DNA from: Candidatus Aphodousia faecigallinarum
GTDB taxonomy: Bacteria > Pseudomonadota > Gammaproteobacteria > Burkholderiales > Burkholderiaceae_F
Reading direction: 5' to 3'
NCBI GenBank assembly: GCA_018714755.1
Contig: DVMY01000085.1
Span: 12,222-76,221 of the forward strand
DNA length: 64,000 nucleotides
Shown: positions 1 to 50,058 of the stretch, piece after piece
Layout: the number at the start of each line of letters is the position of its first letter
Numbering within the stretch: position 1 is the first letter of the stretch
Notes under the pieces: model-generated
Seen by the model: only the letters and a program-made list of their open reading frames with translations
Told to the model about the DNA's origin: nothing
The model's database searches: none
Made by a program: the position numbers and the translations under genes

Positions 1-546
1 TAGCAAAATATTGACCGAAATATCCTGAACCTGAAGATAGTATGTGCCTGACGTGGCTACTAAGCCGAAGAATATAAAAACGACAATTTCTCCATAAGGG
101 GAGTAAGCGATTGGTTTAGGGCCACCCATGTATAGATAGGCCGCTGCAATAGAAAACAATGTGACTAAAAGGAAAAACCAGTGCGTTAAATAAATGAAAT
201 AAACCGTGATTCCGATCGCCAATAATGAGGCGACAAGTATGCCCTTTTCAACATCTTTGATACTTAATAACCCCAAAGAAGTGGCTCTAGGCAATCCTTT
301 TCGATTGGTACGTTCCGCTTTTCTTTTAGTGTAACCGGAGTCATTTTCCATATTTGTCACGGCTTGCATGACAATAGCCAGTAAAGCCGTTAAAAAGGCT
401 GTGAGCCAGTTAATGGAACCGGTATCGGAAAGACAAACAGCCAAAGAGGCTAAAACCGGAGCAACAGCAACTCCAAAAGTTTTCGGACGAATGGCTAGCA
501 ACCAGGCTCCCATGGAACGAGGAGCGACATCTGTAGGATTTGTCAT
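1..546 (-). CDS. menA: 1,4-dihydroxy-2-naphthoate octaprenyltransferase (UbiA superfamily), 3' end runs off the window
   Basis: Not in the ORF track; translated by hand from ATG at 546: MTNPTDVAPRSMGAWLLAIRPKTFGVAVAPVLAS...QAVTNMENDSG...YLYMGGPKPIAYSPYGEIVVFIFFG. MenA-type RPKT, NxxND and Y..GP.P.AY..GE motifs; start overlaps the ybeD stop (TAATG). Confidence 0.82.
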   Translation of the reverse strand, partial: MTNPTDVAPRSMGAWLLAIRPKTFGVAVAPVLASLAVCLSDTGSINWLTAFLTALLAIVMQAVTNMENDSGYTKRKAERTNRKGLPRATSLGLLSIKDVEKGILVASLLAIGITVYFIYLTHWFFLLVTLFSIAAAYLYMGGPKPIAYSPYGEIVVFIFFGLVATSGTYYLQVQDISVNILL

Positions 547-11910: not shown

Positions 11911-12678
11911 ATGTTGCGCATTATTACTTTTAATGCAAATGGTTTGCGTTCTGCGTCCCAGAAAAAGTTTTGGGATTGGTTTGATCAGCAAAATGCTGAT
12001 ATTTTGTGTGTTCAAGAATTAAAGGGGCAGGAAGCGGATTTTAGTGAAACTGTTTTGCACGCCGATCATTACCATCTTTATATGCACACTGCTGAAAAGC
12101 GGGGTTATTCAGGTGTGGCTCTTTACAGCAAAATAAAGCCCATTAATGTTCAAATAGGATTCGGTAACGAAGAGTTTGACGCAGAGGGACGTTGCGTTCA
12201 AGCAGAATTTGAGGATTTTATTGTTGTTTCCGTCTATTTCCCGTCCGGCACCAGTTCAGACGATAGGCAAGAGGCAAAGTATCGTTTCTTGGACGCTTTT
12301 GGAAAGTTTTTAAATCAACTGCGTGCCAGGGGTAAAGAAATAGTATTTTGTGGCGATGTCAATATTGCTCATAAGGAAATTGATTTAAAGAATTGGAAAG
12401 GAAATTTAACGCATTCTGGTTTTTTACCTAAGGAACGACAATGGTTGACTGATTTATTCAGCAGCGGTTGGGTAGATGTTTTTAGACTATTGGAACCCAC
12501 AAAAGAGCAATACACGTGGTGGAGTCAGCGAGGCCAGGCAAGAGCGAAAAACGTAGGTTGGCGTATAGACTATCAAATCGCCACCCCGGCTTTTGCGAAA
12601 AAAGCATTAAAGACATTCGTTTATAGTGATGAAAAATTTTCTGATCATGCTCCGCTCTTAATTGATTATGAGGAATAG
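11911..12678 (+). CDS. xth: exodeoxyribonuclease III (AP endonuclease)
   Basis: NANGLR, CVQELK, GYSGVA, GDVNIAH, WRIDY and SDHAP catalytic motifs all intact. Confidence 0.92.
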   Translation: MLRIITFNANGLRSASQKKFWDWFDQQNADILCVQELKGQEADFSETVLHADHYHLYMHTAEKRGYSGVALYSKIKPINVQIGFGNEEFDAEGRCVQAEFEDFIVVSVYFPSGTSSDDRQEAKYRFLDAFGKFLNQLRARGKEIVFCGDVNIAHKEIDLKNWKGNLTHSGFLPKERQWLTDLFSSGWVDVFRLLEPTKEQYTWWSQRGQARAKNVGWRIDYQIATPAFAKKALKTFVYSDEKFSDHAPLLIDYEE

Positions 12679-41806: not shown

Positions 41807-42919
41807 TTAAAGACCGGTTCTGTTTTTCCAGTGTTTGGAGCTTCCCAGCACATTCAGTGCCACTTCTCTGCCGGTTTTTTGAATGCTTTGCTGAAGGTAG
41901 AGGTTGGTGTCACTCGGTTCTTGCTCGATAAAGGGCTTATTGGCGTAGAGTTGGTAATTTTTTCGAACCACTCTCGGAGTGATGTTGGGCATGATGACGT
42001 TGCAACCGTGCAGGATGCCTTTTTCACGACCGTTGTCTTCAAGAGCGTGTAGTGCGGTTGCGGCAGCAATGTTTATGTCTGGAAGGACCAGACGAGTAGT
42101 GGCAATCATGTTAAGCGCCAATCGCATAAGCGCGTTTTTCTCCATCATGCCTTCACCCAACATGTCACCGCCTTCGCTGGTGATATAGGGACCCATTCCA
42201 ATCATGTCCAAATCAAGCTTTTGGAATGTTCGAATATCTTGACAAAGATCTTCAAGCGTTTGTCCGGGGATGCCAATCATGACACCGGAACCCACTTGGT
42301 AGCCCGCCTTTCTTAAGTCGGCCAAAGCCTCATAACGGCGCTCTAACCCTTTTTCTCGTCCAGGGGCACAGTGCAGATGATCAAAAAGTTCGGGATTAGA
42401 GGTTTCAAATCTCAGCAAATAGCGTAAGCCCATGGGATTGCCGCTGGCTTCGGCCCATTGTTTATAGACTTCGAAAGTTTGCTCTCCCAGTGAAAGCGTA
42501 ATCCCAAGTCCATTTGGCAATGTCGGACTGACAGATTTTTGGTGGATGGTTTTTAGAATATCGGTGACAAAATCAATGAATTTGGGATCTCGTCTTTCCC
42601 CCGATTGCAAGCAGATGGATCCGTAATGATTTTCTGCAGCCCAGAGCGCGGCAGCAACAATCGTGTCTTTATCCAATTCATAACGAGGCACGTTGTGATT
42701 GGATTTGCGGATGCCACAGTAGCGGCAGTCTAAAGTGCAGATATTGGAAAACTCAATTAAACCACGATAATAAACATTATTGCCGACGGTTTTTGTTGTA
42801 CGGTCGTAGGCGGCCTGACGCAGTATCTCGGCTTCTTGAGAGTCAGTGACGCTTAGCAGCCGGATGATGTCATCATCACTAAACTGAGTTTGTTTGACAA
42901 TGTCTGAGATAGTTTTCAT
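41807..42919 (-). CDS. hydE: [FeFe]-hydrogenase H-cluster radical SAM maturase HydE
   Basis: RGLIEFSNICTLDCRYCGIR (CxxxCxxC), ITLSLGE, RYLLRFET, MIGMGPYI, GCNVIMPN and YQLY; start moved to MKTISD. Confidence 0.93.
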   Translation of the reverse strand: MKTISDIVKQTQFSDDDIIRLLSVTDSQEAEILRQAAYDRTTKTVGNNVYYRGLIEFSNICTLDCRYCGIRKSNHNVPRYELDKDTIVAAALWAAENHYGSICLQSGERRDPKFIDFVTDILKTIHQKSVSPTLPNGLGITLSLGEQTFEVYKQWAEASGNPMGLRYLLRFETSNPELFDHLHCAPGREKGLERRYEALADLRKAGYQVGSGVMIGIPGQTLEDLCQDIRTFQKLDLDMIGMGPYITSEGGDMLGEGMMEKNALMRLALNMIATTRLVLPDINIAAATALHALEDNGREKGILHGCNVIMPNITPRVVRKNYQLYANKPFIEQEPSDTNLYLQQSIQKTGREVALNVLGSSKHWKNRTGL

Positions 42920-42923
42920 TTTT

Positions 42924-44168
42924 TTAAAGAGTTTTAAGAGCTTCATCAAACGCGGCCTTAGCATCCGGATGGCAAGCTAAAACGCGAGGTAAAACGCCCT
43001 GCAGATAGGAAATTGTCACGCCGTAATTAGTCATTGGAACCCCTTGAGCTCGAGCCTGTCGCAAGCGAGCTAGCATATGGCGTCGCGTAACAATGCAACC
43101 GCCGCACTGAATAATGACCTTGTAGGGCGTGAGATCCGTGGGGAAATCCTTTCCAACGGTAATTTCTATATCTAGATCGCCGAAGGTCTTTTTGAGCCAA
43201 TTAGGTATCTTTATTCGGCCAATGTCGTCTTTTAATGGATGATGCGAGCATGTTTCCGCAATCAGCACTTTGTCGCCGGGTTTTAATTTTGTCAGTGCCG
43301 CAGCGCCAATTGCCATTTCCAGCAAATCGCTTTTTGAGTAAGCCATTTGGATCGAAAACGTCGTAATGGGAATCGGTTCGGGAACCTCTTTTACAACACG
43401 TAAAACAACCTGACTATCGGTTACCACTAGCTGCGGAGGTTCTTTGATTTCATTGAGCGTTTCAGTGATGCGGTCCTCCTTGATGACCATGCATTTTGCG
43501 CCTGCGTCCAATAATTCACGGATAGCCTGCACTTGAGGAAGGATCAGTCGTCCTTTCGGCGCACCTGTATCAATGGGAGTGACTAGGATAACAGTGTCCC
43601 CCGCTTTAGCCAAATCACCCATCAGGGGGCGATCCGGCTCCGTTTTCTCCAGGACTGTTTGAACAATGGCATCACGCAATTCGGAGATACCCTGCCGTTT
43701 CGCGGCGCTGGTTTGAATGACTCTGTAGCCGCGCAATCGAAGTGAATCCATTTGATCGGCCGCTGGTTCTTTCAGATCCGTTTTATTGAAAACAATAATG
43801 GTAGGGGTGCCGTTTAATTTTGTGGTTTTAAGGATTCCCTCCTCATGCTCTCCCCACGTTCCCGCTTCGCAAACAACGATGGCGATATCCATCCACTCTA
43901 GAACAGAAAGGCTTTTCTGGACGCGGGCTTGTCCTAGGTCGCCGATATCGTCAATGCCAGCCGTATCCATAAAAACGACAGGACCGATGGGTGAGAGTTC
44001 AAACGCCTTTTCAACAGGATCGGTTGTCGTTCCCGCGACACTGCTAACAATGGAAATATTTTGATTAGCTAACGCGTTGATCAGTGACGATTTCCCAGCA
44101 TTTCGTTTGCCGAACAAACCAAAATGAAGACGAAGTCCTTTAGGTGTTTCCATGCGGCTGGTTACCAT
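42924..44168 (-). CDS. hydF: [FeFe]-hydrogenase H-cluster maturation GTPase HydF
   Basis: GKRNAGKSS, GTTTDPV, DTAG, NKTD, APKGRLILPQVQ, CSHH...QCGGC and TNYG motifs. Confidence 0.95.
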   Translation of the reverse strand: MVTSRMETPKGLRLHFGLFGKRNAGKSSLINALANQNISIVSSVAGTTTDPVEKAFELSPIGPVVFMDTAGIDDIGDLGQARVQKSLSVLEWMDIAIVVCEAGTWGEHEEGILKTTKLNGTPTIIVFNKTDLKEPAADQMDSLRLRGYRVIQTSAAKRQGISELRDAIVQTVLEKTEPDRPLMGDLAKAGDTVILVTPIDTGAPKGRLILPQVQAIRELLDAGAKCMVIKEDRITETLNEIKEPPQLVVTDSQVVLRVVKEVPEPIPITTFSIQMAYSKSDLLEMAIGAAALTKLKPGDKVLIAETCSHHPLKDDIGRIKIPNWLKKTFGDLDIEITVGKDFPTDLTPYKVIIQCGGCIVTRRHMLARLRQARAQGVPMTNYGVTISYLQGVLPRVLACHPDAKAAFDEALKTL

Positions 44169-44190
44169 TTTGCTTCCTTCCTACCAAATG

Positions 44191-44222
44191 AAAAGGGACT
44201 CGCTAATAATAGCGAATCCCTT
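44191..44222 (-). terminator. intrinsic terminator between the hydrogenase structural genes and hydF
   Basis: Minus strand AAGGGATTCGCTA-TTAT-TAGCGAGTCCCTT followed by TTCATTT. Confidence 0.7.
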
Positions 44223-44260
44223 GTGATCAGACGTGTATCAGAAAGATACTTTTGTACAAA

Positions 44261-44926
44261 TTATTTTTCGAGGTTTGTACGGATAACGTCTTTTTCAAGC
44301 CACTTCGGAGAGTGGTGTTCAGCCGCTTCGTAAGAGATCGTGCCTTCACCCGGACCCCAGATGCCCTTGAAGTGTTCCCAAGAGAGCAGAGCCAACGGAA
44401 TGTGAGCGCAAACAACCATCAACGAGCAGATGATGGAGCCCCAAACATGGAAGATGTACATCCACCAGAAGGCGCCTTTCGGAATCGCCGGAGCGAAGTA
44501 AAAGAGCATCCAACCGGTGACGGCGAGGCCATACATCATGAAGAAGAAAATGAGATAACTCATCTTTTGACCGCCGTTATAACGACCTTGCGGCGGAACT
44601 TCTTCAGGGCCAAACGGGATCTTAAAGAAGCGACGCGGGTAGCCGCCAAAATTGCGGAACCACTTGATCGTGTCCATATCCCAAGTCAACAAGGCATTCA
44701 AGGTTGCCGCGAAACGATGCGGAGCGAACACCAAATAACCGATAAGGTTGAAGGTGTACACAACAGCAATCCAGATATGCCAAATCATCAAGTTGTTGGC
44801 CGTTTCATCGGAGAGGTTGCAGAAATAAACTGCAGCACCCGTGAACAGCAAAGCAAACCACGTCACCGCGTTGATTGCGTGGAAAATCTTATCAGCGGGG
44901 TGGAATCGTAAAATACGTTCAGCCAT
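44261..44926 (-). CDS. hydC: cytochrome b membrane anchor of the hydrogenase (FdnI/formate dehydrogenase gamma-like)
   Basis: Four TM helices with His residues (FHAIN, WHIW, FHVW, AHIP); PPQGRYNGGQK; AEHHSPKW; start overlaps the hydB stop. Confidence 0.85.
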   Translation of the reverse strand: MAERILRFHPADKIFHAINAVTWFALLFTGAAVYFCNLSDETANNLMIWHIWIAVVYTFNLIGYLVFAPHRFAATLNALLTWDMDTIKWFRNFGGYPRRFFKIPFGPEEVPPQGRYNGGQKMSYLIFFFMMYGLAVTGWMLFYFAPAIPKGAFWWMYIFHVWGSIICSLMVVCAHIPLALLSWEHFKGIWGPGEGTISYEAAEHHSPKWLEKDVIRTNLEK

Positions 44927-45273
44927 TAGTGTTTACCTCCCAAAACCGCTAATTGCGTACGCGGGTAGTAGCGGGTATGCAAAAGGTGATGAGCTAATTC
45001 ACCGGTGGCCGGTTGCGTGTGCATATCGGCATAGAAACGCAAAACAGACTTATTCTGGTGGGAACAAGTCAAGCCGTTTTCTTGGCAAATCTTGTCATCA
45101 CGATACAGGCCAGCTTGACGGGCTTTAATTACGTCGGAGCGACGTTGGATGAGGTCAACAACGGCGTAACCCGTAACGCCGATTGCCAAAGCGGTCACGC
45201 CAACGACTTTTAAGAAGCCGCGGCGACCGAGCATAGCAACGGTTTGTCGTTCGGTATATTCATACTTGCGCAT
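44926..45273 (-). CDS. hydB: [FeFe]-hydrogenase small subunit with Tat signal
   Basis: Twin-arginine GRRGFLK; R..GLY..D...SHQN..V..FY...AHHLLHTRY small-subunit signature. Confidence 0.92.
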   Translation of the reverse strand: MRKYEYTERQTVAMLGRRGFLKVVGVTALAIGVTGYAVVDLIQRRSDVIKARQAGLYRDDKICQENGLTCSHQNKSVLRFYADMHTQPATGELAHHLLHTRYYPRTQLAVLGGKH

Positions 45274-45290
45274 TTATTGTCTCCATCCAA

Positions 45291-46646
45291 TTAAATTTGC
45301 ACAGGAACCGGTAACGTGGGGTTGAGCCACGTGGCACTATCTGTGCGAACCGGTTGACCGCCACCGTTGACACAACCGCCGGGGCAGTTCATCACTTCGA
45401 TGAAGTGGTAACGGTTCTTGTCTTCTTTAATCCGACGCAACACACCTTCGAGGCCTTGAAGCGCGCCATTGACAACGCAAACACGAACCTCAAAAACCTT
45501 TCCGCCTAATTTCTTGATAGGCACAGGGATCGTTGCTTCAACCACGGCATTTGTGCGGCCACGGACAACCTTGATGTCCGGATCTTTCAATTCTTCTCCA
45601 GACAGAACGAAGTAAGCCGTACGCAAGGCAGCTTCCATCACACCACCGGAGGCACCGAAGATTGTGCCGGCGCCGGTGTAGATTTCCATCGTGCTGCGTT
45701 CACGGGTTTTGGGCATTTCCAACGGATTGATGCCCTTGCGGCGGAAAATTTCAGCGATTTCACGAGCCGTAATGACAGCGTCAACGTCTTGGAATGAAGG
45801 CGTATTGGCGGGAATCTTGCCTGTTTCAACAAGGTGCTGCCAAGCCGAATTCATTTCCGGACGGGCCGCTTCAAAAATCTTAGCGGTGCAAGGCGTCACG
45901 GCGACAACATAAATGTCGCGCGGGTCCTTCTTCCAAACAAACTCAGCCGCCCAGGTCTTCGCGATCGGGCCGCCCATTTGAATCGGGCTCTTAGCCGTAG
46001 ACAAATGAGGTAACAAACCGGGGTGGAAAGTTTCCACATTCTTCACCCAAGCCGGGCAGCAGCTGGTGAAGTGCGGGAAGGGGTGCTTAGCAGCTTCTTC
46101 CAATTCTGGGCCACGTTCGCCCAAAACCCAATAACGGATCTTATTAACGAACTCAAAGCCTTCTTCCATAATGGTTTGGTCGGCAGTTTGGTTCACGTCA
46201 TATGTGGTAAAACCAGCCTTTTCCAACGCGTTTACAAACTGTTCGGTGACCAATTCACCTGCTTTGGCTCCAAACTCTTCGCCGACGGAAACACGCACGG
46301 CGGGAGACGGATGAGCGACAACGAGCTTATTGGGGTCGTCGAGCATTTTCATGACTTCATCGACAAAGCTCATTTGTTCAATCGCGTTGAAGGGGCAAGC
46401 GATCAAGCATTGGCCGCAAGACAAGCAAGCGTCTTCACGGATAGAGTGGACAACGCCAAGTCCACCGGAGATGGCATGCACAGGGCAAACTTTACGGCAA
46501 GTATCACAACCAACACAGTTGTCCTTGTTGATCTTGATCACGCCACGCAATTCACCACGGCGAAGGTTGCCAACGTATTCAGGTCCATTTTCCCCGTGCG
46601 CGTTGGGCGGCGGGGTAAACGTATTGACCATAATCGTTTTGGACAT
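45291..46646 (-). CDS. hydA: [FeFe]-hydrogenase large subunit (group A type, 2x[4Fe-4S] + H-cluster)
   Basis: Two CxxCxxCxxxCP ferredoxin motifs; P1 FTSCCPAW, P2 TPCTAKIFE, P3 EVMNCPGGCVNGGGQP; GGVMEAALRT. Confidence 0.96.
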   Translation of the reverse strand: MSKTIMVNTFTPPPNAHGENGPEYVGNLRRGELRGVIKINKDNCVGCDTCRKVCPVHAISGGLGVVHSIREDACLSCGQCLIACPFNAIEQMSFVDEVMKMLDDPNKLVVAHPSPAVRVSVGEEFGAKAGELVTEQFVNALEKAGFTTYDVNQTADQTIMEEGFEFVNKIRYWVLGERGPELEEAAKHPFPHFTSCCPAWVKNVETFHPGLLPHLSTAKSPIQMGGPIAKTWAAEFVWKKDPRDIYVVAVTPCTAKIFEAARPEMNSAWQHLVETGKIPANTPSFQDVDAVITAREIAEIFRRKGINPLEMPKTRERSTMEIYTGAGTIFGASGGVMEAALRTAYFVLSGEELKDPDIKVVRGRTNAVVEATIPVPIKKLGGKVFEVRVCVVNGALQGLEGVLRRIKEDKNRYHFIEVMNCPGGCVNGGGQPVRTDSATWLNPTLPVPVQI

Positions 46647-46681
46647 GTTTAAATCTCTCCCAAGATTTATAAATATCGGAA

Positions 46682-46792
46682 CGGTTGGGCGACCATGCTT
46701 TTTTGGAGGTCTTCTTAAAACCCAACAGTTGTACGTACAGTTCTAGTCGTCAGGGGCACACCTTGGTCCTGGCGCACCCACTGCCAACGTAG
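46682..46792 (-). promoter_or_regulatory. candidate structured 5' leader of hydA
   Basis: Two hairpins in an otherwise AT-rich intergenic region, downstream of a TATAGT -10-like hexamer (46795-46800). Confidence 0.45.
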
Positions 46793-46834
46793 AAACTATA
46801 AAGAATTTTTATGAGAAATAAGCAATAAGTATGC

Positions 46835-46862
46835 GAAAAGAAGTTACCCCTTAAGGGGTAAC
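46835..46862 (-). terminator. intrinsic terminator of menK
   Basis: Perfect palindrome GTTACCCC-TTAA-GGGGTAAC followed on the minus strand by TTCTTTTC. Confidence 0.75.
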
Positions 46863-46869
46863 GTCTCTA

Positions 46870-48165
46870 TCACATATCTATGCTGGATAATGGCTTGCGT
46901 AACTCGGCTCGAACATTATCCATGCCAGAATAAAATGCCTTCATCATGACGAGTCCAAGGAATTTCCCCGCATCCGTCACGATGAGATTGTCTGGATCAC
47001 TCGGATTGTCTTTGATGGCTCCGGCTAATTTGAGTCCAAGCATTTCTTTGAAAAGAGCCTTATCTAAATCCACTCCATGCACGTCGCGGAAGTATTTCCT
47101 AGATAAACGAGCGGCGAAAAGACCCAACAGCAAACGGTACTGCAAGATGGCGTGTTTATCAAAACGTTTTCTTCTCTCGACCCCCATTTTGCCTTGAGAA
47201 ATTCTTTCGTTATAGCGGCGAAGGCTAAATGTGTTGACGTAAAGAGAGTCGCCCAAGAAACTGAATGCGCCTGAGCCAAGCCCTAAATACTCGTCATGGT
47301 CAACGACATATTCGTCAAAGCCTTCGTCATGGGATCGGCCGAAAGTCCAAGAGGTCAATTGGTTATAGTTTTTACCCAATGTATCCAGGATGATTCTGTA
47401 TTGAGCGGCTAGATCAGCAGTCGGAGCCGCGATGGTGTTTCTAACGTTGGCTTTGGTTTGCGTGGTTACCATCAAGGGGTAAGTTGTAATCTGACGGGGA
47501 TTCAGCTTCATTAATAAGTCAACATCGCGCTGAAGGATTTCTTCTGTTTGTCCGCGGAAACCAAAAATCATGTCGACATTCATGATCGGAAATAACTCTT
47601 GGGCGGCTTGGATGCGCTCAAAAATTTGCTCTCCATTTCCGAATTTTTCATATCGGTCAATCATCTTCAGGATGTTATCGTCGAAACTTTGTACTCCGAC
47701 AGACATCCGGTCAACCAGCCCTTTGAGATTTCTGAAGTTATCAGTTGCCAAGTGAGCAGGATCGGTTTCGCAGGATACTTCCTTCATCGAAGGAAAAAGC
47801 GTTCTGGCCAGTTCAATTGTCTTGATGAGCTCATCTTCGAGAATAGTGGTTGTGCCCCCACCGATATACATCGAGGTGAAGTCATAGCCCATGTCTTTCG
47901 CCATTTGCATTTCTTTGCGCAAGTTAACGAAATACTCACGGGCTTTATATTCTTTAAAGATAAAGCGGTGGAATGTGCAATAAGAACACAGCGTATGACA
48001 GAACGGGATGTGGGCATACATCATGTACTGATGACCTTCTTGGGGGGCCGGATGCCGATCCAAAATGATCGGTTCGACATTGAGCTCACGGTCAATGTAG
48101 TACTTCATGATGCGATCGGTTAGACCGATCATCCAGTTCGGTAATAACTTGTCGTGTTCTGCCAT
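46870..48165 (-). CDS. menK: class C radical SAM menaquinone methyltransferase (methylmenaquinone synthase), HemN-like
   Basis: YAHIPFCHTLCSYCTFHRF, YIGGGTTT, SVGVQSF, DEYVVDHDEYLGLGSG and C-terminal MMKAFYSGMDNVR closely resemble MenK/MqnK as I recall them; menA is present in the same window. Confidence 0.82.
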   Translation of the reverse strand: MAEHDKLLPNWMIGLTDRIMKYYIDRELNVEPIILDRHPAPQEGHQYMMYAHIPFCHTLCSYCTFHRFIFKEYKAREYFVNLRKEMQMAKDMGYDFTSMYIGGGTTTILEDELIKTIELARTLFPSMKEVSCETDPAHLATDNFRNLKGLVDRMSVGVQSFDDNILKMIDRYEKFGNGEQIFERIQAAQELFPIMNVDMIFGFRGQTEEILQRDVDLLMKLNPRQITTYPLMVTTQTKANVRNTIAAPTADLAAQYRIILDTLGKNYNQLTSWTFGRSHDEGFDEYVVDHDEYLGLGSGAFSFLGDSLYVNTFSLRRYNERISQGKMGVERRKRFDKHAILQYRLLLGLFAARLSRKYFRDVHGVDLDKALFKEMLGLKLAGAIKDNPSDPDNLIVTDAGKFLGLVMMKAFYSGMDNVRAELRKPLSSIDM

Positions 48166-48204
48166 GATATGTCTCTATTTATATTCAATTCAAAGGGTGC
48201 TATT

Positions 48205-50058
48205 TTAGCGGTGACCTGCGTAAAGTGTTTGAATTTGCGGCGCAAATTTCTCGTTCAAAGCTTTTCGCTTAAGTTTGAGCGTCGGGGTGATCAAACCATT
48301 TTCAATGGTCCAGGGTTCCAGCGTTAAATACACGTTCCTAGGAAGAGCATATTGAGGGAAGTCTTTCACCGCCGTCTTAATTCGTTTTAACACGGCGTTG
48401 CGTGTGACAGTGGCTAAAAGACTTTCTGGATCATTGGGGTCAAGATCAAGTGTAGACGCTAATTTGGACCACTCTTCCTTATTTAAGACCACTATGGTTG
48501 AAATGAAAGGACGGTTTTCTCCAATCACGAAGGCTTGATCAAAAAGAGGATCGATTTCAATCGCCAATTCCAAATCAGCGGGAGGAACTTTTTCGCCTGT
48601 ACTGGTGACGATGATTTCCTTAATGCGCCCGACAATTTTCAGGTACCCCTCGTGATCAAATTCTCCGACGTCACCCGTTTTAAGCCAACCGTCCTCCGTA
48701 AATACCTCTCTGGTAGCTTGGGGACGATTCCAATAGCCTTTCATCACCGACGGCGACTTCACTTGAATTTCATCATCGGCCCCTAAACGGACATTAGTTT
48801 GAGGCAGGGGCTTGCCGACGGTGTTGGGGTGATTATAGGTTAACGAATTTCCGGCTATGATCGGGCTAGACTCTGTCATCCCGTAACCTTGGATAATCGG
48901 CAAGCCTAAACCACAAAATGCTTTAGCCACTTTTGAATTTAAGGCGGCTCCGCCACTGATAGCGATACGAAGCTGTCCGCCAAACTGATTGAGCAACGTT
49001 TTAGAAACAAGCCGCTCAAGAATGGGCCAAACCACGGGATCCAAGATTGTCGCCCCGCCTCTTTGAGTGGGAAGGCCGTATTTTTTACTAAAACGCCTCC
49101 AGCCGACTTCAACCGCCCAATTAAACATAAACCGCACAAAACTTGATTCGCGGGCAAGCTTGGCTTGCACCTTTGCGAAAATACGTTCATAAATGCGGGG
49201 AACGGAAATAATCACATTGGGGCGAACGATGCGAAAGTCTTCGGCTAATTGTTGAATAGATCGAGTGTAAACGATGGTGCAACCCATGCCGAGAGCCAAG
49301 TAGTAGCCAGCCATACGTTCAAAAGTGTGGGAAACGGGTAAGAATGATAAAAACACATCGCCCGGTTTCGGACAAACGGTTTTCAATGTGTTTATGACAT
49401 TGCTGACAACGTTTTTGTGCGTGAGCATGACGCCTTTTGGCTTGCCTGTCGTGCCGGATGTGTAAACAATAGCAGCTAAATCATTTTCGTCGGGTGGGCT
49501 GGGCAATTCTGTTACCCCATGCCCAGTGGCTAGCCAAGATTCAAGATCCCAATGCTTGACGCCGTCTTGCCTGGATTGAGGCGAAGATTCTTCTGTGAAA
49601 ATGACATTTCTCAGATTGGGCATGACGGTGTGAGTAAGATAAATGGCATCCCAGCGACTTTGACGATTAGTGACAAGAACAGTAGCTTGGCTATCGGCAA
49701 TAATGAAGGCGCTGGAGCCTGCGGTATCGATGGCATGCAAAGGGACGGGAACATAGCCGTTAGCCAAAACAGCCTGGTCACAACAAACTGCATCGACGCC
49801 GTTGGGTAAAAGAATGGCAACTCGATCGCCACGCTTGAGGTTCATTTTGGCGAAAGCTCTGCGCCACTGTTGAACGCGTTCATTCAAATCTCTGTAGGAG
49901 ACTCGTTCCCATGTATTGGAGCGGCGATCAAATTGTCTGAGAGCTTCTGTGTGGGGTGCAATCTTTGCACGAGCAGGAACAAACTGATCTAAGGTTTTTA
50001 ACTGACTCAAAGCTTGGAAGCGGATTTCAGCAGAATCAATAGCCACGATCGACCTCAA
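48205..50058 (-). CDS. long-chain fatty acid--CoA ligase (AMP-dependent synthetase)
   Basis: YTSGTTGKPKG, QGYGMTES, GWLKTGD and LITPTLKLKR motifs; TTG start. Confidence 0.9.
   Translation of the reverse strand: MRSIVAIDSAEIRFQALSQLKTLDQFVPARAKIAPHTEALRQFDRRSNTWERVSYRDLNERVQQWRRAFAKMNLKRGDRVAILLPNGVDAVCCDQAVLANGYVPVPLHAIDTAGSSAFIIADSQATVLVTNRQSRWDAIYLTHTVMPNLRNVIFTEESSPQSRQDGVKHWDLESWLATGHGVTELPSPPDENDLAAIVYTSGTTGKPKGVMLTHKNVVSNVINTLKTVCPKPGDVFLSFLPVSHTFERMAGYYLALGMGCTIVYTRSIQQLAEDFRIVRPNVIISVPRIYERIFAKVQAKLARESSFVRFMFNWAVEVGWRRFSKKYGLPTQRGGATILDPVVWPILERLVSKTLLNQFGGQLRIAISGGAALNSKVAKAFCGLGLPIIQGYGMTESSPIIAGNSLTYNHPNTVGKPLPQTNVRLGADDEIQVKSPSVMKGYWNRPQATREVFTEDGWLKTGDVGEFDHEGYLKIVGRIKEIIVTSTGEKVPPADLELAIEIDPLFDQAFVIGENRPFISTIVVLNKEEWSKLASTLDLDPNDPESLLATVTRNAVLKRIKTAVKDFPQYALPRNVYLTLEPWTIENGLITPTLKLKRKALNEKFAPQIQTLYAGHR

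What the first reader, a model, noticed from the sequence alone, without database searches (positions are those of the whole stretch)
44261..48165. Periplasmic [FeFe]-hydrogenase-cytochrome b module next to methylmenaquinone synthase in a betaproteobacterium
Seen: hydA, Tat-signal hydB and a four-His cytochrome b, with menK immediately upstream; menA is also in the window. Known: quinone-coupled H2 uptake is usually done by group 1 [NiFe] enzymes; a hydAB + cytochrome b layout occurs in Shewanella oneidensis; methylmenaquinone has a lower potential than menaquinone. Inference: an H2 to cytochrome b to methylmenaquinone respiratory module built on an [FeFe] enzyme, making this organism a candidate gut H2 consumer.
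Basis: partly seen in the sequence, partly recalled or inferred. Interest (0 to 1): 0.7.

Follow-up and report, generated by a model that had tools for sequence, protein, structure and literature searches.

The report
Quinone-linked periplasmic [FeFe] hydrogenase beside menK
An uncultured gut Sutterella-like bacterium carries an exported iron-only hydrogenase wired to the membrane quinone pool through its own cytochrome b, an enzyme type already known from Shewanella oneidensis. Here it most likely lets the cell feed on hydrogen gas, and the neighbouring quinone-methylating gene is a conserved but separately transcribed neighbour.

Summary
On the minus strand lie a MenK-type radical-SAM methyltransferase (46870-48165), hydA (45291-46646), a Tat-signal hydB (44926-45273) and a four-histidine FdnI-fold cytochrome b, hydC (44261-44926), followed by hydF and hydE. 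Only the 5' end of menA is in the window (1-546).

This is the HydAB-HydC enzyme known from Shewanella oneidensis. A 2026 preprint, citing Xiong 2020, reports that hydC and menaquinone are needed there for H2 production.

- The same genome also encodes a group-1 [NiFe] hydrogenase.
- The genus (24 genomes) has no molybdopterin enzyme, so no formate dehydrogenase, and no complex I.
- It does keep fumarate reductase, MenK and both periplasmic hydrogenases.

That favours H2 uptake over the Shewanella formate-to-H2 role, but direction is unproven.

menK-hyd adjacency is conserved across Sutterellaceae. However, a terminator-like hairpin separates the genes, their nearest relatives lie in different phyla, and four Sutterella loci keep menK without hydABC.

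HydC-linked enzymes do sit mostly in genomes with a MenK-type gene: 7 of 9 elsewhere and 31 of 31 in Shewanellaceae.

The scan noted similar cytochrome b-linked [FeFe] hydrogenases in other genomes. Verdict: a new member of a known kind.

The parts
46870..48165 (-). menK: class C radical-SAM menaquinone methyltransferase (MKMT family), 431 aa
   Evidence: NF006385 at 655 bits (cut-off 355), and the only hit over cut-off in the genome. All six MKMT motifs are present (against PMC10320005 Table 2). It is 66% identical to the Shewanella decolorationis orthologue.
46843..46862 (-). Terminator-like hairpin directly after the menK stop codon
   Evidence: An 8-bp stem with 5 G-C pairs, followed by a T-rich tail. 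This is a consensus scan only, and the number of such sites in the region is no higher than in shuffles.
46647..46869 (-). 223-bp menK-hydA intergenic region (hydA leader and promoter region)
   Evidence: Gap taken from the ORF coordinates. The equivalent gap is 230-640 bp in other Sutterellaceae. No Rfam family matched.
45291..46646 (-). hydA: [FeFe]-hydrogenase large subunit, M2(D) type, with no signal peptide
   Evidence: Fe_hyd_lg_C plus two Fer4 motifs. Best solved relative is the Desulfovibrio periplasmic HydA at 1e-90. It carries the extra loop shared with HydC-linked enzymes.
44926..45273 (-). hydB: small subunit with a twin-arginine signal
   Evidence: Fe_hyd_SSU. RRGFLKV aligns with the 1hfe_S signal. 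The n-region motif YEYTE and the fixed 33-residue spacing are shared by HydC-linked HydB.
44261..44926 (-). hydC: four-helix di-haem cytochrome b of the FdnI type; its start overlaps the hydB stop by one base
   Evidence: Ni_hydr_CYTB at 52 bits. Invariant H16, H50, H160, H175 and N117, G119, Q120, K121. AF2 model with pLDDT 86; best fold match is FdnI 1kqf_C at TM 0.72.
44193..44222 (-). Terminator-like hairpin between hydC and hydF
   Evidence: A 13-bp stem followed by a T-rich tail.
42924..44168 (-). hydF: H-cluster maturation GTPase
   Evidence: TIGR03918 at 521 bits (cut-off 326).
41807..42964 (-). hydE: H-cluster radical-SAM maturase
   Evidence: TIGR03956 at 287 bits (cut-off 255).
48205..50058 (-). 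Acyl-CoA-ligase-like AMP-binding gene, 39 bp upstream of menK (context, likely the same transcription unit as menK)
   Evidence: PF00501 at 246 bits. It is paired with menK in every Sutterellaceae locus examined.
1..546 (-). 5' part of the genome's only UbiA-family prenyltransferase (candidate menA), cut by the window edge
   Evidence: PF01040 hit at G000:C52:11964-12686, where the window begins at 12222.

Best explanation
It docks on its own FdnI-type di-haem cytochrome b (HydC), which connects it to the menaquinone/methylmenaquinone pool at a quinone site on the cytoplasmic side of the membrane. It is the same enzyme type as S. oneidensis HydAB-HydC.

In this genus the most likely working direction is H2 uptake:
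1. H2 is split in the periplasm.
2. Electrons cross the membrane through the two haems.
3. The quinone is reduced with cytoplasmic protons, which is a proton-motive redox-loop half.
4. The quinol is reoxidised by fumarate reductase or cytochrome bd.

The enzyme probably works in parallel with the group-1 [NiFe] hydrogenase. Because the span from H2 to methylmenaquinone is small at gut H2 levels, it is probably readily reversible.

The upstream menK makes methylmenaquinone for the whole quinone pool. It is a conserved but separately transcribed neighbour, not a dedicated part of the hydrogenase.

Shown here: gene content, motifs, fold, synteny and genome inventory. Inferred: quinone coupling (by homology to Shewanella genetics and FdnI), direction, and which quinone is used.
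For: **Enzyme identity**
- Domains and motifs.
- HydA and HydB are closest to the Desulfovibrio periplasmic enzyme, including RRGFLKV.
- HydC has four invariant His, the FdnI N-x-G-Q-K quinone-site motif and the FdnI fold at TM 0.72.
- The hydA-hydB-hydC triad is conserved in Sutterellaceae, Campylobacterota, Shewanella, Syntrophales, Bacteriovoracaceae and Selenomonadales.
- HydE, HydF and HydG are all present.

**Published genetics**
- For the Shewanella homologue, hydC and menaquinone are needed for HydAB activity. The enzyme is bidirectional in vitro, with a slight bias to H2 oxidation (bioRxiv 10.64898/2026.10.15.759383, citing Xiong 2020).

**Direction**
- Molybdopterin enzymes in 0 of 24 genus genomes and NuoH in 0 of 24.
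- Window-type HydA in 22 of 24, NiFe large subunit in 21 of 24, the Frd/Sdh flavoprotein in 22 of 24 and MKMT in 22 of 24, with 13, 12, 13 and 13 of the 13 high-quality genomes respectively.
- CydA is present in the window's own genome.
- H2 to MMK is exergonic by 175-205 mV at 0.001-0.01 atm H2 (MMK taken as -150 mV from PMC11707229).

**menK as a separate unit**
- Terminator-like hairpins flank hydABC.
- menK is retained without hydABC in L147, L148, L152 and L156.
- menK and hydA have different nearest relatives.
Against: - In S. oneidensis the homologous enzyme is reported only to evolve H2 in vivo (Meshulam-Simon 2007 and Xiong 2020, as cited in the preprint).
- The same genome has a canonical [NiFe] uptake hydrogenase that could do all the H2 oxidation.
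- No experiment exists for any Sutterellaceae enzyme.
- The terminator and promoter scans are consensus matches no more frequent than in shuffles.
- The window's own MAG is only 76% complete.
- Absences were tested with single Pfam families, so a divergent formate dehydrogenase or an alternative NADH dehydrogenase (Ndh-2, Nqr) was not excluded.
Confidence: 0.6

Rival explanations
1. The module is a quinol-oxidising, H2-evolving valve, as proposed for S. oneidensis. Reduced (methyl)menaquinol delivers electrons through HydC to HydAB, protons are reduced in the periplasm at the expense of proton-motive force, and excess reductant leaves as H2. The low potential of methylmenaquinone would make this less uphill.
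For: - The Shewanella homologue contributes to H2 production and was not seen to oxidise H2 in vivo; hydC deletion abolishes HydAB-dependent H2 production (bioRxiv 10.64898/2026.10.15.759383).
- Syntrophs are proposed to reoxidise MMKH2 at periplasmic formate dehydrogenases or hydrogenases through a reverse redox loop (PMC8805022).
- HydC-linked enzymes occur in Syntrophales.
- Co-occurrence with MenK-type genes.
- A separate [NiFe] uptake enzyme is present.
Against: - The Shewanella scheme needs a periplasmic formate dehydrogenase to reduce the pool, and no molybdopterin enzyme was found in 24 genus genomes.
- No complex I was found.
- A cytoplasmic NAD(P)H-linked group-A2-like [FeFe] hydrogenase is available for direct H2 release.
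- MMKH2 to H2 is uphill by 175-205 mV at 0.001-0.01 atm H2.
Confidence: 0.25
2. One reading: menK and hydABC form one functional module, in which HydC reacts specifically with methylmenaquinone and the adjacency reflects co-selection.
For: - Adjacency holds in about 60 species-level Sutterellaceae loci across Aphodousia, Sutterella, Duodenibacillus, Parasutterella and Turicimonas.
- MKMT is over cut-off in 7 of 9 HydC-bearing genomes outside the family, against 0 of 4 with HydAB but no HydC and 1 of 10 Desulfovibrio-type.
- All 31 of 31 HydA-positive Shewanellaceae are MKMT-positive.
- MKMT is retained in 13 of 13 high-quality genus genomes although no low-potential molybdoenzyme acceptor is present.
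Against: - The adjacency is one ancestral arrangement inside a wider conserved block that also holds prfC.
- A terminator-like hairpin lies between the genes.
- menK is kept where hydABC is lost.
- The genes are not adjacent in Shewanella, Campylobacterota or Syntrophales.
- Their nearest relatives differ.
- Selenomonadales and one Desulfobacterota genome have HydC but no MKMT over cut-off.
- The MKMT background is 87% in Shewanellaceae and 18% in Desulfobacterota, and the genomes are not independent.
Confidence: 0.2
3. The menK-like gene is not (only) a quinone methyltransferase but a haem chaperone of the CgdH2 type, serving haem insertion into cytochromes b such as HydC.
For: C. jejuni CgdH2 sits in the MKMT clade, has all six motifs and was reported to receive haem from ferrochelatase (PMC10320005). 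The gene lies next to a di-haem cytochrome b operon.
Against: - Sutterellaceae make MMK-6 (PMC11022602, PMC11707229), and this is the only MKMT-scoring gene in the genome.
- It is 66% identical to the Shewanella orthologue of a MenK family with shown methyltransferase activity (PMC10114718).
- It is kept where hydABC is absent.
Confidence: 0.05

Closest known systems
Shewanella oneidensis MR-1 HydAB-HydC (hydA-hydB-hydC(fdh)-hydGXEF operon); SoHydAB characterised in bioRxiv 10.64898/2026.10.15.759383
   Same: - M2(D) large subunit with two F-clusters, and a Tat small subunit.
- An FdnI-like cytochrome b encoded directly downstream.
- The same extra surface loop in HydA.
- The host also has a [NiFe] Hya-type enzyme and a MenK.
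- 50% HydA identity to S. decolorationis.
   Different: - HydC is only 26% identical.
- hydG is unlinked, and hydX was not sought.
- The host genus has no formate dehydrogenase and no complex I, so the formate-driven H2-evolution role proposed for Shewanella cannot apply as such.
- menK is adjacent here but not in Shewanella.
Desulfovibrio / Nitratidesulfovibrio periplasmic [FeFe] hydrogenase HydAB (PDB 1HFE)
   Same: The best solved relative for both subunits (1e-90 for HydA). It shares the H-cluster motifs, two F-clusters and the RRGFLKV hitch-hiker export signal.
   Different: The Desulfovibrio enzyme has no cytochrome b gene and, by textbook knowledge, uses soluble cytochrome c3. It lacks the two HydA insertions and the conserved long n-region of HydB. 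It forms a separate clade.
E. coli formate dehydrogenase-N gamma subunit FdnI (PDB 1KQF chain C)
   Same: Four-helix di-haem cytochrome b fold (TM 0.72). The four His ligands and the N-x-G-Q-K loop at the cytoplasmic quinone site align.
   Different: Sequence identity is only about 22%. There is no FdnH-like iron-sulfur subunit with a membrane helix; HydA's F-clusters must reach haem bP directly.
Group 1 membrane-bound [NiFe] uptake hydrogenases (Wolinella HydABC, E. coli Hya/Hyb)
   Same: The functional logic is shared: Tat export, a periplasmic active site, a di-haem cytochrome b anchor and quinone reduction. One is encoded in the same genome.
   Different: The catalytic subunits are unrelated ([FeFe] H-cluster). 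The cytochrome b is FdnI-type rather than HyaC-type (TM 0.46 to 4gd3_A).
MenK/MqnK/MenK2 menaquinone C-methyltransferases (Hein 2017/2018; Wilkens 2021)
   Same: All six signature motifs, NF006385 above cut-off, and 66% identity to the Shewanella orthologue.
   Different: The product (8- versus 7-methyl) is not determined here. The gene is always paired with an acyl-CoA-ligase-like gene in Sutterellaceae, which I did not see next to the homologues in other phyla.

Membership tests
M2(D)-type periplasmic heterodimeric [FeFe] hydrogenase ('group A5' in recent gut surveys) | Three H-cluster binding motifs in the large subunit | tested here: met
   FTSCCPAW, TPCTAKIFE (T in place of the usual M) and EVMNCPGGCVNGGGQP.
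M2(D)-type periplasmic heterodimeric [FeFe] hydrogenase ('group A5' in recent gut surveys) | Two ferredoxin-like [4Fe-4S] F-cluster motifs and no further N-terminal cluster domains | tested here: met
   Two Fer4 stretches at residues 37-94 in a 451-aa protein.
M2(D)-type periplasmic heterodimeric [FeFe] hydrogenase ('group A5' in recent gut surveys) | A separate small subunit (Fe_hyd_SSU) carrying the twin-arginine signal, with no signal on the large subunit | tested here: met
   PF02256 at 54 bits. RRGFLK at residues 17-22. The HydA N-terminus has no hydrophobic signal.
M2(D)-type periplasmic heterodimeric [FeFe] hydrogenase ('group A5' in recent gut surveys) | HydE, HydF and HydG maturases present | tested here: met
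   HydF and HydE are in the window. HydG is on contig C31 at 854 bits.
Shewanella-type HydAB-HydC (cytochrome b-linked [FeFe] hydrogenase) | A cytochrome b gene directly downstream of hydB in the same unit | tested here: met
   The hydC start overlaps the hydB stop by one base. The triad is conserved in six or more lineages.
Shewanella-type HydAB-HydC (cytochrome b-linked [FeFe] hydrogenase) | Di-haem, four-His, FdnI-like fold for HydC | tested here: met
   Invariant H16, H50, H160 and H175. Foldseek gives 1kqf_C at TM 0.72, E 1e-6.
Shewanella-type HydAB-HydC (cytochrome b-linked [FeFe] hydrogenase) | HydA groups with HydC-linked enzymes rather than with cytochrome c3-linked Desulfovibrio enzymes | tested here: met
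   The ML tree puts the window in a 100/100 clade with Campylobacterota HydC-linked enzymes, while the Desulfovibrio type is a separate 100/99 clade. The insertion loop is shared.
Shewanella-type HydAB-HydC (cytochrome b-linked [FeFe] hydrogenase) | Activity depends on menaquinone and on HydC | not testable with these tools
   Reported only for S. oneidensis (Xiong 2020, as cited in bioRxiv 10.64898/2026.10.15.759383).
MKMT (MenK/MqnK/MenK2) class C radical-SAM menaquinone methyltransferases | Six signature motifs of Wilkens 2021 (as listed in PMC10320005 Table 2) | tested here: met
   MYAHIPFCHTLCSYCTF (M in place of L), YFVNLRKE, GYDFTSMYIGGGT, RMSVGVQSFDDNIL, QITTYPLM and NTFSLRRY.
MKMT (MenK/MqnK/MenK2) class C radical-SAM menaquinone methyltransferases | Scores above the curated family cut-off and apart from HemN, HemW and ChuW | tested here: met
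   NF006385 at 655 bits against the next family at 163 bits. None of 14 control genomes is over cut-off.
MKMT (MenK/MqnK/MenK2) class C radical-SAM menaquinone methyltransferases | Host makes menaquinone and methylmenaquinone | tested here: inconclusive
   A single UbiA-family (MenA-like) gene was found; other men genes were not searched. MMK-6 is reported for cultured Sutterellaceae (PMC11022602, PMC11707229), not for this MAG.
MKMT (MenK/MqnK/MenK2) class C radical-SAM menaquinone methyltransferases | Catalyses C8 (MenK) or C7 (MenK2) methylation | not testable with these tools
   Supported only by 66% identity to the Shewanella MenK-type orthologue.
Group 1 [NiFe] uptake hydrogenase | NiFe large subunit and Oxidored_q6 small subunit | tested here: not met
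   The module in the finding is [FeFe]. A true group-1-type [NiFe] enzyme lies elsewhere, on contig C29. So it may work like one but is not a member.

The most novel reading that the evidence does not exclude
HydC-linked [FeFe] hydrogenases may be a distinct, membrane-anchored enzyme class tuned to the low-potential methylmenaquinone pool.

- The whole Tat signal region of HydB is conserved across phyla: a [YF]x[YF]xE motif in the n-region and an invariant 33-residue spacing. This suggests it is kept as an uncleaved signal anchor that packs against HydC, taking the place of FdnH's membrane helix.
- The enzyme class co-occurs with MenK-type genes in at least five separate lineages.
- In this genus, which has neither complex I nor formate dehydrogenase, the periplasmic hydrogenases together with a cytoplasmic NAD(P)H-linked [FeFe] hydrogenase could run hydrogen cycling as the main way to turn cytoplasmic reductant into proton-motive force.
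Probability: 0.25. Interest if true: 0.65.

Novelty: new member of a known kind. Interest (0 to 1): 0.45.

Why it matters
Sutterella and Parasutterella are already listed among the dominant predicted H2 consumers of the human gut. Knowing that they carry two different periplasmic, quinone-linked hydrogenases, one [NiFe] and one [FeFe], matters for models of gut gas balance.

The stripped-down respiratory chain of this genus has no formate dehydrogenase, no nitrate-type reductases and no complex I. That makes it a clean natural system for asking two questions:
- What does a cytochrome b-linked [FeFe] hydrogenase do in vivo?
- Which quinone does it use? This is still open even for the Shewanella enzyme.

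If the link with methylmenaquinone and the signal-anchor idea hold, they would define how an [FeFe] enzyme was recruited into a respiratory redox loop.

Tried and rejected
- **Rfam.** A scan of 44000-48400 at E up to 1 gave no family, so the hydA leader hairpin noted by another reader matches nothing known.
- **Quinone genes next to hydABC elsewhere.** I looked for menaquinone-biosynthesis genes next to hydABC in Selenomonadales (L080). I found flagellar, MreB, lactate dehydrogenase and succinyl-CoA ligase genes only.
- **The acyl-CoA-ligase-like partner of menK in other phyla.** None was found within 1.5 kb.
- **menA in the window by motif.** There is no full UbiA-type ORF; only the truncated 5' end at 1-546.
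- **Wilkens 2021.** The paper is not held, so the motifs were taken from the table in PMC10320005.
- **The T-for-M change in the P2 H-cluster motif as a marker of catalytic bias.** Rejected as a clade trait, because a same-genus MAG has M there.
- **A co-transferred menK-hyd module.** Rejected, because the nearest relatives differ: Shewanella for MenK and Campylobacterota for HydA.
- **Literature searches.** Searches pairing Sutterellaceae or methylmenaquinone with hydrogenase found no paper describing this locus.

Full report
**Observation.** The minus strand between 41.8 and 50.1 kb carries, in order:
- an AMP-binding acyl-CoA-ligase-like gene (50058..48205);
- a HemN-like radical-SAM gene (48165..46870);
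- hydA (46646..45291), hydB (45273..44926) and a cytochrome b gene (44926..44261);
- hydF (44168..42924) and hydE (42964..41807).

prfC converges on the plus strand.

HydA has Fe_hyd_lg_C, two Fer4 motifs and the three H-cluster motifs. HydB has Fe_hyd_SSU and LGRRGFLKV. The cytochrome b matches Ni_hydr_CYTB and, below cut-off, formate dehydrogenase gamma. The finding's coordinates and gene calls are therefore right.

The claim that menA is in the window is only half right. The one UbiA-family gene of the genome straddles the window start, so only window 1-546 is inside.

**Organism.** The window is part of a 1.5-Mb MAG of 108 contigs, 76% complete. HydA is 96-98% identical to 'Candidatus Aphodousia' and uncultured Sutterella gut MAGs.

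**What the hydrogenase is.**
- Among solved structures, HydA and HydB are closest to the Desulfovibrio periplasmic [FeFe] hydrogenase (1e-90), down to the RRGFLKV export signal.
- The cytochrome b aligns with E. coli FdnI.
- In 21 homologues from at least seven lineages, four histidines (H16, H50, H160, H175) and an N117-x-G119-Q120-K121 loop are invariant. That loop aligns with FdnI N110/G112/Q113. From my memory of Jormakka et al. 2002, those residues line the cytoplasmic-side menaquinone site next to haem bC.
- An AlphaFold2 model (pLDDT 86, pTM 0.80) matches FdnI over its full length (TM 0.72-0.74, E 1e-6). It matches the Hyd-1 cytochrome b only weakly, at TM 0.46.
- The hydA-hydB-hydC triad recurs in Sutterellaceae, Campylobacterota, Shewanella, Syntrophales, Bacteriovoracaceae and Selenomonadales.
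- In an ML tree these enzymes are separate from the Desulfovibrio type. The Sutterellaceae enzymes nest with those of Campylobacterota at 100/100 support.
- HydC-linked HydA proteins share two insertions. One is the exposed His/Tyr loop described for the Shewanella enzyme (bioRxiv 10.64898/2026.10.15.759383).

**What is already known.** The S. oneidensis operon hydA-hydB-hydC-hydGXEF is this enzyme type. The 2026 preprint reports the following:
- SoHydAB is bidirectional in vitro, with a slight bias to H2 oxidation.
- Citing Xiong 2020, hydC and menaquinone are required for HydAB-dependent H2 production.
- Citing Meshulam-Simon 2007, no in vivo H2 oxidation by HydAB was seen.
- The proposed path is formate to FDH to MK to HydC to HydAB to H2.

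A gut survey preprint already names Parasutterella and Sutterella as dominant predicted H2 consumers, and it uses the label 'group A5' for [FeFe] enzymes with a small subunit. Methylmenaquinone is known in Sutterellaceae, Shewanellaceae and Ferrimonadaceae.

**Genome context that bears on direction.**
- The genome has all three maturases; HydG is on C31.
- It has a group-1-type [NiFe] hydrogenase. The small subunit carries SRRSFLQF and a C-terminal membrane helix, and HybE and Hyp genes sit alongside. In a same-genus genome the operon continues with a HyaC-type cytochrome b and a protease.
- It has a cytoplasmic M3-type [FeFe] hydrogenase next to a GltD-like subunit, and a HydA-rubrerythrin fusion.
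- It has one Frd/Sdh flavoprotein and CydA.
- I found no molybdopterin oxidoreductase, NuoH or NrfA.

Across 24 genomes of the genus, 13 of them at least 90% complete:

| Feature | Genomes | High-quality |
|---|---|---|
| Molybdopterin enzymes | 0/24 | 0/13 |
| NuoH | 0/24 | 0/13 |
| Window-type HydA | 22/24 | 13/13 |
| NiFe large subunit | 21/24 | 12/13 |
| Frd/Sdh flavoprotein | 22/24 | 13/13 |
| MKMT | 22/24 | 13/13 |

The Shewanella scheme needs a periplasmic formate dehydrogenase, which this genus appears to lack. By contrast, the chain from H2 to quinone to fumarate reductase or cytochrome bd is complete.

Taking MMK as -150 mV and MK as -74 mV, H2 oxidation at 0.001-0.01 atm gives 175-205 mV to MMK and 251-281 mV to MK. 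The MMK couple is thus close to a typical proton-motive force and would reverse easily. I therefore favour uptake at about 0.6, with a reversible or evolving role as the main rival.

**The menK neighbour.**
- The 431-aa protein scores 655 bits against NF006385 (cut-off 355). It is the only such gene in the genome, and none of 14 control genomes reaches the cut-off.
- It has all six MKMT motifs.
- It is 66% identical to the Shewanella decolorationis orthologue, but only 36-48% identical to Campylobacterota and Syntrophales homologues.
- One caveat: C. jejuni CgdH2, from the same clade, was described as a haem chaperone.

**Is the adjacency meaningful?** The block AcsL-MenK-HydA-HydB-HydC-HydF-(HydE)-prfC is conserved in roughly 60 species-level loci of Aphodousia, Sutterella, Duodenibacillus, Parasutterella and Turicimonas. 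Several points nonetheless weaken a functional reading:
1. It is one ancestral arrangement within a larger syntenic block.
2. A terminator-like hairpin follows the menK stop and another follows hydC, so hydABC looks like its own unit, while menK sits 39 bp after AcsL.
3. Four Sutterella loci keep AcsL-MenK-(HydF)-HydE-prfC without hydABC, and second hydABC copies elsewhere lack menK.
4. In Shewanella, Campylobacterota and Syntrophales the genes are not within 8 kb of each other.
5. MenK and HydA have different nearest relatives.

**A different kind of link: co-occurrence.**

| Genome set | MKMT over cut-off |
|---|---|
| HydC-bearing, outside Sutterellaceae | 7 of 9 (Shewanella, Wolinella, Campylobacter, three Syntrophales, Bacteriovoracaceae); not in a Selenomonadales genome or in Desulfobacterota G064 |
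| HydAB without HydC (Thermodesulfovibrio type) | 0 of 4 |
| Desulfovibrio-type HydAB | 1 of 10 |
| Desulfobacterota sample (background) | 55 of 301 |
| Shewanellaceae sample (background) | 131 of 151 |
| Shewanellaceae with HydA | 31 of 31 (hypergeometric 0.007) |

Fisher tests give 0.02 and 0.001. The genomes are related, so these numbers overstate the case, and two exceptions show MMK is not obligatory. I rate a specific MMK coupling at about 0.2-0.25.

**An unplanned observation on HydB.** In HydC-linked enzymes the Tat signal region of HydB is conserved across phyla.
- The n-region is 13-20 residues long and carries [YF]x[YF]x[ED] in 17 of 20 sequences.
- The distance from RR to the R..G.Y motif is exactly 33 residues in 20 of 20.
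- HydC-less HydB have 5-7-residue n-regions, no motif and variable spacing.

Disposable signal peptides are not usually conserved like this. I suggest the segment stays on as a signal anchor beside HydC. This is inference only.

**Verdict.** This is a new member of the known HydAB-HydC enzyme type, in a host whose gene inventory argues for H2 uptake. menK is a conserved but independent neighbour. The scan had noted similar cytochrome b-linked [FeFe] hydrogenases in other genomes.

Noticed in passing
window 45170-45273 (HydB residues 1-35), and HydB of L022-L083: The Tat signal region of HydC-linked HydB is conserved across phyla. The n-region carries [YF]x[YF]x[ED] in 17 of 20 sequences, and RR lies exactly 33 residues before the R..G.Y motif in 20 of 20. 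HydC-less HydB lack both features. This suggests an uncleaved signal anchor or a chaperone-binding site.
   Followed up: partly
window 48205-50058 (minus strand): A 617-aa FadD11-like AMP-binding enzyme lies directly upstream of menK (39 bp here) in every Sutterellaceae locus examined, including those that lost hydABC. It was not seen next to MenK homologues in other phyla. Its function is unknown.
   Followed up: partly
L147, L148, L152, L156: Four Sutterella loci keep AcsL-MenK-(HydF)-HydE-prfC but lack hydA-hydB-hydC. The structural genes behave as a cassette that can be lost from, or moved out of, a stable frame. Other Sutterella carry a second hydABC copy elsewhere (L042, L046, L048, L053).
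   Followed up: partly
G000 and 23 genomes of the same genus: No molybdopterin oxidoreductase and no NuoH were found in any of 24 genomes (13 of them at least 90% complete). Two periplasmic hydrogenases, one Frd/Sdh flavoprotein and MenK are nearly universal. This is a very reduced, H2-centred respiratory chain.
   Followed up: yes
G000:C13:5354-7477 (L169): A 707-aa [FeFe] hydrogenase fused to rubrerythrin and rubredoxin-like domains. It may be an H2-dependent peroxide or oxygen defence enzyme.
   Followed up: no
G000:C14:6499-10368 (L170): An M3-type [FeFe] hydrogenase (614 aa) next to a GltD-like NAD(P)H/FAD subunit (670 aa). This is a group-A2-like cytoplasmic enzyme that could feed hydrogen cycling.
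   Followed up: no
window 45880-45910 (HydA P2 motif): The usual MPC of the H-cluster P2 motif reads TPC here and in Sutterella, Wolinella and Campylobacter. A same-genus cattle MAG, Shewanella and Syntrophales have MPC, so the change is not fixed even within the genus.
   Followed up: partly
L142, L143, L162: Contigs titled Acutalibacteraceae, Oscillospiraceae and Hallella faecis carry the complete Sutterellaceae AcsL-MenK-HydABC-HydF-prfC block at 68-81% identity. They are probably mis-binned Sutterellaceae contigs in those assemblies.
   Followed up: no
window 46682-46800: The hydA leader region, which another reader flagged as a possible RNA element, has no Rfam match at E up to 1. The equivalent gap is 230-640 bp in other Sutterellaceae.
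   Followed up: partly
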